From contig OZ024760.1 of the NCBI GenBank assembly GCA_964016885.1, positions 7,936,001 to 8,000,000 on the forward strand: a DNA stretch of 64,000 nt. The letters are read 5' to 3'. How positions within the stretch are numbered: the first letter of the stretch is position 1; each line of letters starts with the position of its first letter. The notes beneath the pieces were generated by a model. That model did no database searches and was not told the DNA's origin. It saw only the letters and a program-made list of their open reading frames with translations. This document shows, in pieces, positions 18,400-61,893 of the stretch. Source of the DNA: Eledone cirrhosa. Lineage: Eukaryota. Position numbers and translations under genes: made by a program.

Positions 18400-18548
18400 T
18401 TAATGAAGGAGAAAGATATATCAGTAAAGGAGGTGATGAAAGGATGGAGTGCCCAAGAAAACTATCCATTGGTCACTGTGGCCAAAGACAAGACTGGGAA
18501 ACATCTTCACATTACACAGAAGCCATTCTCATATATATCAGAGGCCAA
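18400..18548 (+). CDS. M1 aminopeptidase unit A exon ([27 protein letters not shown]...)
   Basis: tttcag acceptor, gtaagt donor; M..W..Q..YP.VTV motif of M1 peptidases; 149 nt, phase 0/2. Confidence 0.85.

Positions 18549-61893: not shown

What the first reader, a model, noticed from the sequence alone, without database searches (positions are those of the whole stretch)
18400..61893. Two aminopeptidase-N-like units concatenated into one polypeptide
Seen: the exon that should end an M1 protein (38088-38212, ...ENWKKRN..KELSY) ends at a strong CAG|gtaagg donor in phase 2. The next exon (40921) opens after a clean acceptor in phase 2, giving ...[19 protein letters not shown]... Unit B shows no signal anchor or signal peptide of its own, and the 2.7-kb intron is nearly all repeats, leaving little room for a promoter and first exon. 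Known: animal ANPEP/ENPEP/ERAP-type M1 enzymes are normally single units of roughly 950 aa, many acting as non-covalent dimers. Inference: this locus encodes a covalent tandem of at least two units (a fused heterodimer-like enzyme or a polyprotein). I recall multi-M1 predicted proteins in other molluscs, so it may be a poorly characterised lineage architecture rather than unique.
Basis: partly seen in the sequence, partly recalled or inferred. Interest (0 to 1): 0.85.

Follow-up and report, generated by a model that had tools for sequence, protein, structure and literature searches.

The report
Octopus double aminopeptidase in one chain
This octopus-like gene strings two copies of a zinc protein-trimming enzyme (aminopeptidase N type) into one open reading frame that is likely made as a single membrane-anchored chain, an arrangement already annotated in other octopuses and common, though barely studied, across invertebrates.

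Summary
Twenty-three GT-AG exons (18400-61893) give 1,006 codons without a stop, joining the end of one M1 aminopeptidase unit to the start of a second across the phase-2 intron 38213-40920. The model aligns in one collinear block (65-68% identity) with the two-unit proteins annotated in Octopus sinensis and O. bimaculoides; Argonauta hians has the same junction. Orthologous two-unit ORFs of 1,773-1,827 aa sit uninterrupted on 5.9-7.0 kb Logan contigs, two skipping exactly the window's 52-codon exon, so spliced two-unit mRNA very likely exists in a sister lineage. No RNA test was possible for this species. Orthologues have one N-terminal anchor and exactly two units; unit B keeps all catalytic motifs, while octopod unit A keeps its zinc site but lacks the catalytic tyrosine. 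The architecture is not mollusc-specific: 91 of 120 top hits (molluscs, annelid, rotifers, arthropods, echinoderms) have short-linker tandems, not traceable to one ancestral fusion. It was noted in passing in 2007 (PMC2241622). Verdict: real, new member of a known but uncharacterised kind.

The parts
18400..18548 (+). unit A exon (end of domain II / start of domain III)
19610..19686 (+). unit A exon (domain III)
20788..20909 (+). unit A exon (GFYRVNYD, start of domain IV)
22825..22880 (+). unit A exon
   Evidence: protein alignment
24164..24311 (+). unit A exon, ERAP1_C-like
   Evidence: Pfam E 0.0011, below curated cut-off
25312..25388 (+). unit A exon
27311..27421 (+). unit A exon, ERAP1_C-like
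   Evidence: E 0.0013
28395..28559 (+). unit A exon, ERAP1_C-like
   Evidence: E 0.01
33790..33945 (+). unit A exon, 156 nt, phase 2-2; likely cassette exon: the same 52 residues are absent in O. sinensis isoform X2 and in two Logan ORFs of the sister-lineage orthologue
36384..36456 (+). unit A exon
38088..38212 (+). last exon of unit A (C-terminal helix of domain IV), strong phase-2 donor
38213..40920 (+). junction intron, 2,708 nt, mostly tandem repeats (38227-39274; 39543-40712)
40921..41328 (+). linker plus first exon of unit B (Peptidase_M1_N, E 2.4e-14)
42782..42940 (+). unit B exon (TQFEPT...FPCFDEP; Peptidase_M1_N E 2.3e-19)
44236..44356 (+). unit B exon
47938..48058 (+). unit B exon
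48798..48952 (+). unit B exon with GAMEN and HELAH
   Evidence: Peptidase_M1 E 2.5e-18
50888..51001 (+). unit B exon with third zinc ligand Glu (WLNEG)
   Evidence: E 6.7e-16
53644..53778 (+). unit B exon with the catalytic Tyr (ISYDK)
54420..54485 (+). unit B exon
56237..56302 (+). unit B exon
57865..58040 (+). unit B exon
60394..60503 (+). unit B exon (domain III)
61766..61893 (+). unit B exon (GFYRVNYE, start of domain IV); gene continues beyond the window

Best explanation
The window holds the middle of one octopod gene whose exons join two M1 aminopeptidase units in a single open frame, likely translated as one roughly 1,800-residue, membrane-anchored ecto-aminopeptidase with a likely impaired first unit and a likely active second unit. 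Shown here: the open spliced frame, the splice signals, and intact GAMEN, HEXXH-X18-E and Tyr motifs in unit B. Inferred from orthologues: a short cytoplasmic tail and one type II anchor upstream of the window, exactly two units, and a unit A that keeps AGMEN and HEXXH-X18-E but has lost the transition-state tyrosine in octopods (kept in the sister lineage). Inferred from family knowledge: unit B removes N-terminal residues from extracellular or gut-lumen peptides with a zinc-activated water; the units hang head to tail on a linker of about 10 residues, so unit A would act mainly as a folded spacer and peptide- or zinc-binding module. The likely original gain of the fusion is two active sites per membrane anchor, followed by divergence of the two units (25% identity between them).
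For: Open 23-exon frame with normal splice scores. One collinear alignment across the junction to O. sinensis P0002/P0005 and O. bimaculoides P0003, 65-68% identity over 1,007 columns; O. vulgaris P0007 and Argonauta P0011 also span it. Residues on both sides of the intron are conserved (ELSY-[RKD]-KKK-x-LSA-x-x-RLP), and Argonauta has no Met before RLP, so unit B has no conserved start of its own. Tree: window unit A groups with first units of P0005, P0011, P0014, P0019 (SH-aLRT 100), unit B with their second units (99). 10 of 12 members of the P0014 cluster and 3 of 3 of the P0019 cluster are full two-unit ORFs on Logan contigs of 5,850-6,982 nt; a 5.5-kb ORF leaves no room for introns when the window's smallest is 641 nt; P0134 and P0135 lack exactly the 52 residues of exon 33790-33945. 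Pfam finds each of the three M1 domains twice in P0002 and P0003. Unit A of O. vulgaris folds as an M1 enzyme (pLDDT 78, pTM 0.77; Foldseek E 2e-48, TM 0.73-0.77 to ERAP1/2 and IRAP) with no Tyr at the catalytic position. 91 of 120 top hits have short non-hydrophobic unit-to-unit linkers.
Against: No junction-spanning RNA from this species was seen. The octopod orthologues are genome-based predictions whose read support I could not view; the O. vulgaris annotation splits the gene into several proteins (though not at this junction). The Logan contigs' library type is not shown, so their mRNA origin is inferred, and they are only 38-52% identical to the window. 21 of 120 top hits have long or hydrophobic linkers typical of merged neighbouring genes, so such annotation artefacts do occur in this family. 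Unit A's active site is outside the window, so its state in this species is unknown. No expression, localisation or activity data exist for any of these proteins in what I found.
Confidence: 0.88

Rival explanations
1. Two separate neighbouring aminopeptidase genes, gene A ending at the TAA inside the donor (38214-38216) and gene B having its own first exon, merged only by gene prediction.
For: In-frame TAA directly after ELSYR. Merged tandem genes with signal or anchor sequence between the units are common among hits (21 of 120). O. vulgaris annotation is fragmented.
Against: 7 of 9 other phase-2 donors in this gene also read into a stop at once. No hydrophobic first-exon candidate in the intron. 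Junction residues conserved in four octopod sequences with no conserved Met. Intron-free two-unit orthologous ORFs with exon skipping on 6-7 kb contigs.
Confidence: 0.06
2. One transcript and one precursor, but cut at the basic linker (RKKK) into an anchored unit A and a shed or non-covalently held unit B, as a polyprotein.
For: The linker is basic in octopods ([12 protein letters not shown]) and modelled with low confidence (pLDDT under 50 at P0007 134-139); tandem serine proteases such as polyserase-1 are processed this way (PMC1435904, abstract listing).
Against: No R-x-[KR]-R or R-x-x-R motif in the window's linker and no R-x-[KR]-R in seven other cephalopod junctions; the sister-lineage linker of P0019 is not basic (QQDNNETIT); linker sequences across animals share no motif. 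Cutting by gut trypsin-like enzymes cannot be excluded.
Confidence: 0.2
3. Both units are active with different specificities (a covalent two-specificity enzyme), unit A having only remodelled its site.
For: Orthologous unit A keeps HEXXH-X18-E and xGMEN and folds fully; sister-lineage unit A keeps the Tyr; among 91 short-linker tandems 231 of 251 units keep zinc ligands and Tyr, 3 lack a zinc ligand, 17 were unscorable.
Against: Octopod unit A has no Tyr between +35 and +104 from the first His, where unit B has it at +86 and the sister lineage at +77; that Tyr polarises the scissile carbonyl in porcine APN (PMC5431086, passages). Unit A has the longest branch in the tree.
Confidence: 0.3

Closest known systems
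Octopus sinensis XP_029650203.1 / XP_029650204.1 and O. bimaculoides XP_014776693.1 (predicted two-unit M1 proteins); Argonauta hians GAB1610746.1
   Same: Orthologues: same junction, same unit order, 63-64% (unit A) and 71-72% (unit B) identity to the Octopus proteins.
   Different: Different species; these records are uncharacterised and no paper in the held library cites their accessions.
Mammalian aminopeptidase N (ANPEP/CD13; MEROPS family M1; e.g. PDB 4FYQ, 7VPQ)
   Same: Unit B matches over its whole length (E 1.6e-167, best PDB hit); GAMEN, HEXXH-X18-E, catalytic Tyr; type II anchor in orthologues.
   Different: APN is a single 967-residue unit that forms a non-covalent homodimer through domain IV (PMC10221039, passages); here two diverged units share one anchor.
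Tandem M1 proteins of C. elegans (Q22531, 1,890 aa), C. briggsae (Q61J79) and Anopheles gambiae (Q7PYD3)
   Same: Two M1 units in one predicted chain, noted in passing by PMC2241622 (section 8 read).
   Different: Those sequences were not in my searches' hit lists and were not compared; the paper reports conserved motifs in their second units and says nothing on function, linkers or origin.
Tandem ectoenzymes such as somatic ACE, carboxypeptidase D, sucrase-isomaltase, polyserases
   Same: Works-like analogy: several homologous catalytic units on one anchor, with diverged or dead units (ACE two domains and polyserases seen in listings; the others recalled).
   Different: Different folds and families; those are biochemically characterised, the M1 tandems are not in what I found.

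Membership tests
M1 aminopeptidase (unit B) | Zinc motif HEXXH-X18-E | tested here: met
   HELAH...WLNE across exons 48798-48952 and 50888-51001
M1 aminopeptidase (unit B) | Exopeptidase motif GXMEN | tested here: met
   GAMEN in exon 48798-48952
M1 aminopeptidase (unit B) | Catalytic Tyr after the zinc motif | tested here: met
   SYDKG at the profile position
M1 aminopeptidase (unit B) | Domains I-IV (Peptidase_M1_N, Peptidase_M1, ERAP1_C) | tested here: met
   I and II in the window; IV only in orthologues, beyond the window
M1 aminopeptidase (unit A) | M1 fold | tested here: met
   ERAP1_C-like exons in the window (weak); orthologue model matches ERAP1/2, IRAP at TM 0.73-0.77
M1 aminopeptidase (unit A) | Zinc motif and GXMEN | tested here: inconclusive
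   Outside the window; orthologues have HEVIH-X18-E and AGMEN
M1 aminopeptidase (unit A) | Catalytic Tyr | tested here: not met
   Absent in O. sinensis, O. vulgaris, O. bimaculoides and Argonauta unit A; present in P0014/P0019; the window's own site lies upstream and was not seen
M1 aminopeptidase | Zinc-dependent removal of N-terminal residues | not testable with these tools
   needs an assay
Aminopeptidase N (ANPEP type) | Type II membrane anchor | tested here: inconclusive
   Outside the window; orthologues have one hydrophobic stretch near residues 24-46 (mean hydropathy 3.2-3.3)
Aminopeptidase N (ANPEP type) | Single catalytic unit of about 950 residues | tested here: not met
   two units per chain
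Aminopeptidase N (ANPEP type) | Orthology to vertebrate ANPEP rather than ERAP/IRAP/ENPEP | tested here: inconclusive
   Unit B scores 562 bits to APN and 538 to ERAP1; unit A scores best to ERAP1; no tree with named vertebrate paralogues was built
Aminopeptidase N (ANPEP type) | Homodimer through domain IV | not tested
   no complex prediction was run
TRH-degrading ectoenzyme (one RefSeq name of the orthologue) | Ala in place of Gly at the first motif position (PMC2241622 passage) | tested here: inconclusive
   Unit B has GAMEN; orthologous unit A has AGMEN; the name looks like an automatic best hit
Tandem (multi-unit) M1 proteins | Complete C-terminus of one unit joined to complete N-terminus of the next by a short linker without signal or anchor | tested here: met
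   Profile positions 876 to 1 with 14 residues between, not hydrophobic
Tandem (multi-unit) M1 proteins | Expressed as one spliced mRNA | tested here: inconclusive
   Not testable in this species; inferred for sister-lineage orthologues from intron-free ORFs and exon skipping

The most novel reading that the evidence does not exclude
Concatenated M1 aminopeptidases are a recurrent, convergently evolved class of invertebrate ectoenzymes (two or three units, arising separately in several mollusc lineages, annelids, rotifers, chelicerates, hymenopterans and echinoderms), and in octopods the membrane-proximal unit has become a zinc-binding pseudo-enzyme that captures peptides or regulates the distal unit, with an anciently conserved cassette exon switching its domain IV lid.
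Probability: 0.3. Interest if true: 0.65.

Novelty: new member of a known kind. Interest (0 to 1): 0.42.

Why it matters
Textbook M1 aminopeptidases are single units, and long M1 predictions are easily dismissed as merged genes. The evidence here says many are real, gives a simple test to tell the two apart (short polar linker versus long linker with a signal or anchor), and points to a cephalopod gene in which the first unit is diverging towards a non-catalytic role. It offers a natural system for asking what a covalent second unit adds to a gut-type exopeptidase. It does not reveal a new chemistry, and the orthologous gene is already in RefSeq.

Tried and rejected
No whole genome is held, so the gene could not be extended. 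Run search: no RNA holder listed; three holders of one sample, whose contigs run straight through the intron-exon borders at 40921 and 41328 and so behave as DNA; no junction test came of it, and read support at the donor side was not obtained. Search for shorter stand-alone forms of the junction region gave 1 hit among 619 candidates, a single-exon ORF read from DNA, uninformative. Among the best 150 cluster representatives none was a single-unit protein above 46% identity to unit B, but clustering at 50% would hide such forms. The in-frame TAA at the donor was considered as a gene end and rejected. A hidden first exon in the intron was sought and not found. A single ancient fusion was tested: AU tests reject one clade of all 19 first units (p 1.5e-41) and of the 11 mollusc first units (p 3.7e-39); these used a quick LG+G4 tree of 41 units from 19 chosen proteins, after I had seen a FastTree, with long branches in play, and homogenisation between units (Owenia units 95.6% identical) could mimic separate origins. 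The junction model (pTM 0.56) does not fix the units' relative orientation. No complex prediction was run. Ten paper searches found one passing mention (PMC2241622) and no study of a tandem M1; subscription journals and supplements were not seen, and Wong et al. 2012 was not held. My recollection that C. elegans anp-1 is the tandem gene was wrong: ANP-1 is about 110 kDa (PMC6857582). Four look-ups of earlier scan findings gave nothing relevant.

Full report
OBSERVATION. The window is repeat-rich animal DNA. I traced 23 exons on the + strand from 18400 to 61893; all 22 introns are GT-AG, phases match, and the 3,018 nt translate to 1,006 residues without a stop. Exon 38088-38212 encodes the last helix of an M1 domain IV and ends at CAG|gtaagg in phase 2; exon 40921-41328 opens in phase 2 and encodes a short basic linker and M1 domain I (Pfam Peptidase_M1_N, E 2.4e-14). 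Both splice sites score within the range of the gene's other 22 sites (donor 11.5 of 5.1-12.3, acceptor 9.6 of 5.3-14.5). The unspliced donor reads into TAA at once, but so do 7 of the 9 other phase-2 donors. Of 100 ATG-to-GT phase-2 open stretches in the 2,708-nt intron none has both a positive donor score and a hydrophobic segment. The window holds profile positions 441-876 of unit A and 1-565 of unit B; nothing matching the missing parts lies in 1-18399 or 61894-64000.

WHAT IT IS. The first unit-B exon found two proteins among 129 candidates, from Octopus sinensis (1,746 aa) and O. bimaculoides (1,692 aa). The exon model aligns to each, and to the longer O. sinensis isoform (1,798 aa), in one collinear block across the junction at 65-68% identity. 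Each carries all three M1 Pfam domains twice behind one N-terminal hydrophobic anchor. The O. vulgaris annotation breaks the gene into several proteins, yet one of them spans the junction, and an Argonauta hians model does too. The junction reads ELSY-[RKD]-KKK-x-LSA-x-x-RLP in all; Argonauta has no Met before RLP. The source is thus an octopod other than those named (inference from identity and tree).

TRANSCRIPT-LEVEL SUPPORT. No RNA run holds the window's exon (the three holders behave as DNA), so this species was not tested. Two unnamed Logan clusters are orthologous: window unit A groups with their first units (SH-aLRT 100) and unit B with their second units (99), as sister to the octopods. 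Ten of 12 members of one cluster and 3 of 3 of the other are full two-unit ORFs on contigs of 5,850-6,982 nt. A 5.5-kb ORF on such a contig leaves no room for introns, when the window has 22 introns of at least 641 nt in 3 kb of coding sequence. Two members lack exactly the 52 residues of exon 33790-33945, the same stretch that O. sinensis isoform X2 lacks. I infer spliced two-unit mRNA with a conserved cassette exon; the contigs' library type is not shown.

CATALYTIC STATE. Window unit B has GAMEN, HELAH-X18-E and SYDKG; the orthologous unit B's best solved relative is human aminopeptidase N (E 1.6e-167). Orthologous unit A keeps AGMEN and HEXXH-X18-E and is predicted to fold as an M1 enzyme (pLDDT 78, pTM 0.77; TM 0.73-0.77 to ERAP1, ERAP2, IRAP), but in the three Octopus species and Argonauta the Tyr of the SYxKG motif is gone (INIQG), while the sister lineage keeps it (AYEES). 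That Tyr polarises the scissile carbonyl in porcine APN (PMC5431086, passages). The two units are only 25% identical. The window's own unit A site lies upstream and was not seen. A model of the junction shows the last helix of A, about ten coil residues, then the strands of B, with low confidence at the joint and no fixed orientation (pTM 0.56). No furin-type motif is present.

HOW WIDESPREAD. A full-length search gave 1,327 hits of 988-3,147 aa; I analysed the best 120. With a unit profile, 91 have at least one complete C-to-N junction with a short polar linker (150 linkers, median 7, range 0-23 residues beyond the profile ends), 21 have only long or hydrophobic linkers, as expected of merged neighbouring genes, and 8 could not be scored. 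Short-linker tandems occur in bivalves, gastropods, cephalopods (a second, separate gene), an annelid, a brachiopod, rotifers, chelicerates, crustaceans, hymenopterans and other insects (mostly three units) and starfish. Of their 251 units, 231 keep zinc ligands and Tyr, 3 lack a ligand, 17 were unscorable, so the octopod Tyr loss is unusual. In a tree of 41 units from 19 chosen proteins, first units do not form a clade (at least 9 changes forced by well-supported branches; AU p 1.5e-41; mollusc first units alone p 3.7e-39). Within several lineages units are position-orthologous across species, so the tandems are old and stable there. Separate origins are the simplest reading; homogenisation between units and long branches are caveats.

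MECHANISM. Shown: the open frame and unit B's motifs. Inferred: one type II membrane protein of about 1,800 residues; unit B trims N-terminal residues from extracellular, probably gut-lumen, peptides; unit A is likely weak or dead in octopods and serves as spacer and binding module; fusion first gave two active sites per anchor. Tissue and substrate are not known; the digestive role rests on family knowledge (PMC4826915 and PMC10221039, passages). Rivals: two genes (0.06), a cleaved precursor (0.2) and two active specificities (0.3); the last two are compatible with one transcript.

WHAT IS KNOWN. The orthologous gene is annotated in RefSeq, and PMC2241622 (section 8 read whole, other passages seen) noted in 2007 that proteins of C. 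elegans, C. briggsae and Anopheles gambiae encode two M1 aminopeptidases in tandem. Ten searches of the held library found no study devoted to such tandems and no paper citing the octopus accessions; subscription journals and supplements were not seen. Also seen: PMC6857582 (abstract, outline, passages; ANP-1 is single-unit, T16G12.1 knock-down lowers brood size; that T16G12.1 is Q22531 is my recollection), PMC4338194, PMC10368266 and PMC12607849 (passages; nothing on tandems).

VERDICT. Observation confirmed, interpretation supported (0.88). New member of a known but uncharacterised kind; interest 0.42. The parts worth following are the repeated origin of M1 tandems, the degenerating first unit in octopods and the conserved cassette exon.

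Noticed in passing
window 33790-33945: In-frame 156-nt exon of unit A domain IV whose 52 residues are absent from O. sinensis isoform X2 (P0002) and from Logan ORFs P0134 and P0135 of the sister-lineage orthologue, at the same borders: a conserved cassette exon.
   Followed up: yes
P0178, P0062 (Argonauta); P0035, P0140, P0145 (Sepia cluster): Cephalopods have a second, separate two-unit M1 gene (about 1,930 aa) with both units keeping all catalytic motifs.
   Followed up: partly
P0026, P0043, P0045, P0060 and relatives: Bees, ants and wasps share a conserved three-unit M1 protein of about 2,700 aa with hydrophobic N- and C-terminal ends (likely signal peptide and GPI signal); Logan contigs of 8.4-10.8 kb hold the whole ORF.
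   Followed up: partly
P0027-P0036, P0021, P0097, P0110: Bdelloid rotifers have several three-unit M1 proteins; Brachionus has a two-unit form.
   Followed up: partly
P0039 (Owenia fusiformis): Its two units are 95.6% identical with a short linker: a recent fusion or ongoing homogenisation.
   Followed up: no
window 28700-29950: Broken reading frames that look like the 3' part of a decayed non-LTR retrotransposon (recalled resemblance; three fragments gave no Pfam match).
   Followed up: partly
window 75-9690 and 9826-15526: A 45-bp x 213 G-rich array followed by about 5.7 kb of AT/GT microsatellite, inside what must be an intron of more than 18 kb upstream of exon 18400.
   Followed up: no
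window 40964: Two of three DNA runs read A for the window's C, each in one low-depth contig: a possible allele or error in the first unit-B exon.
   Followed up: no
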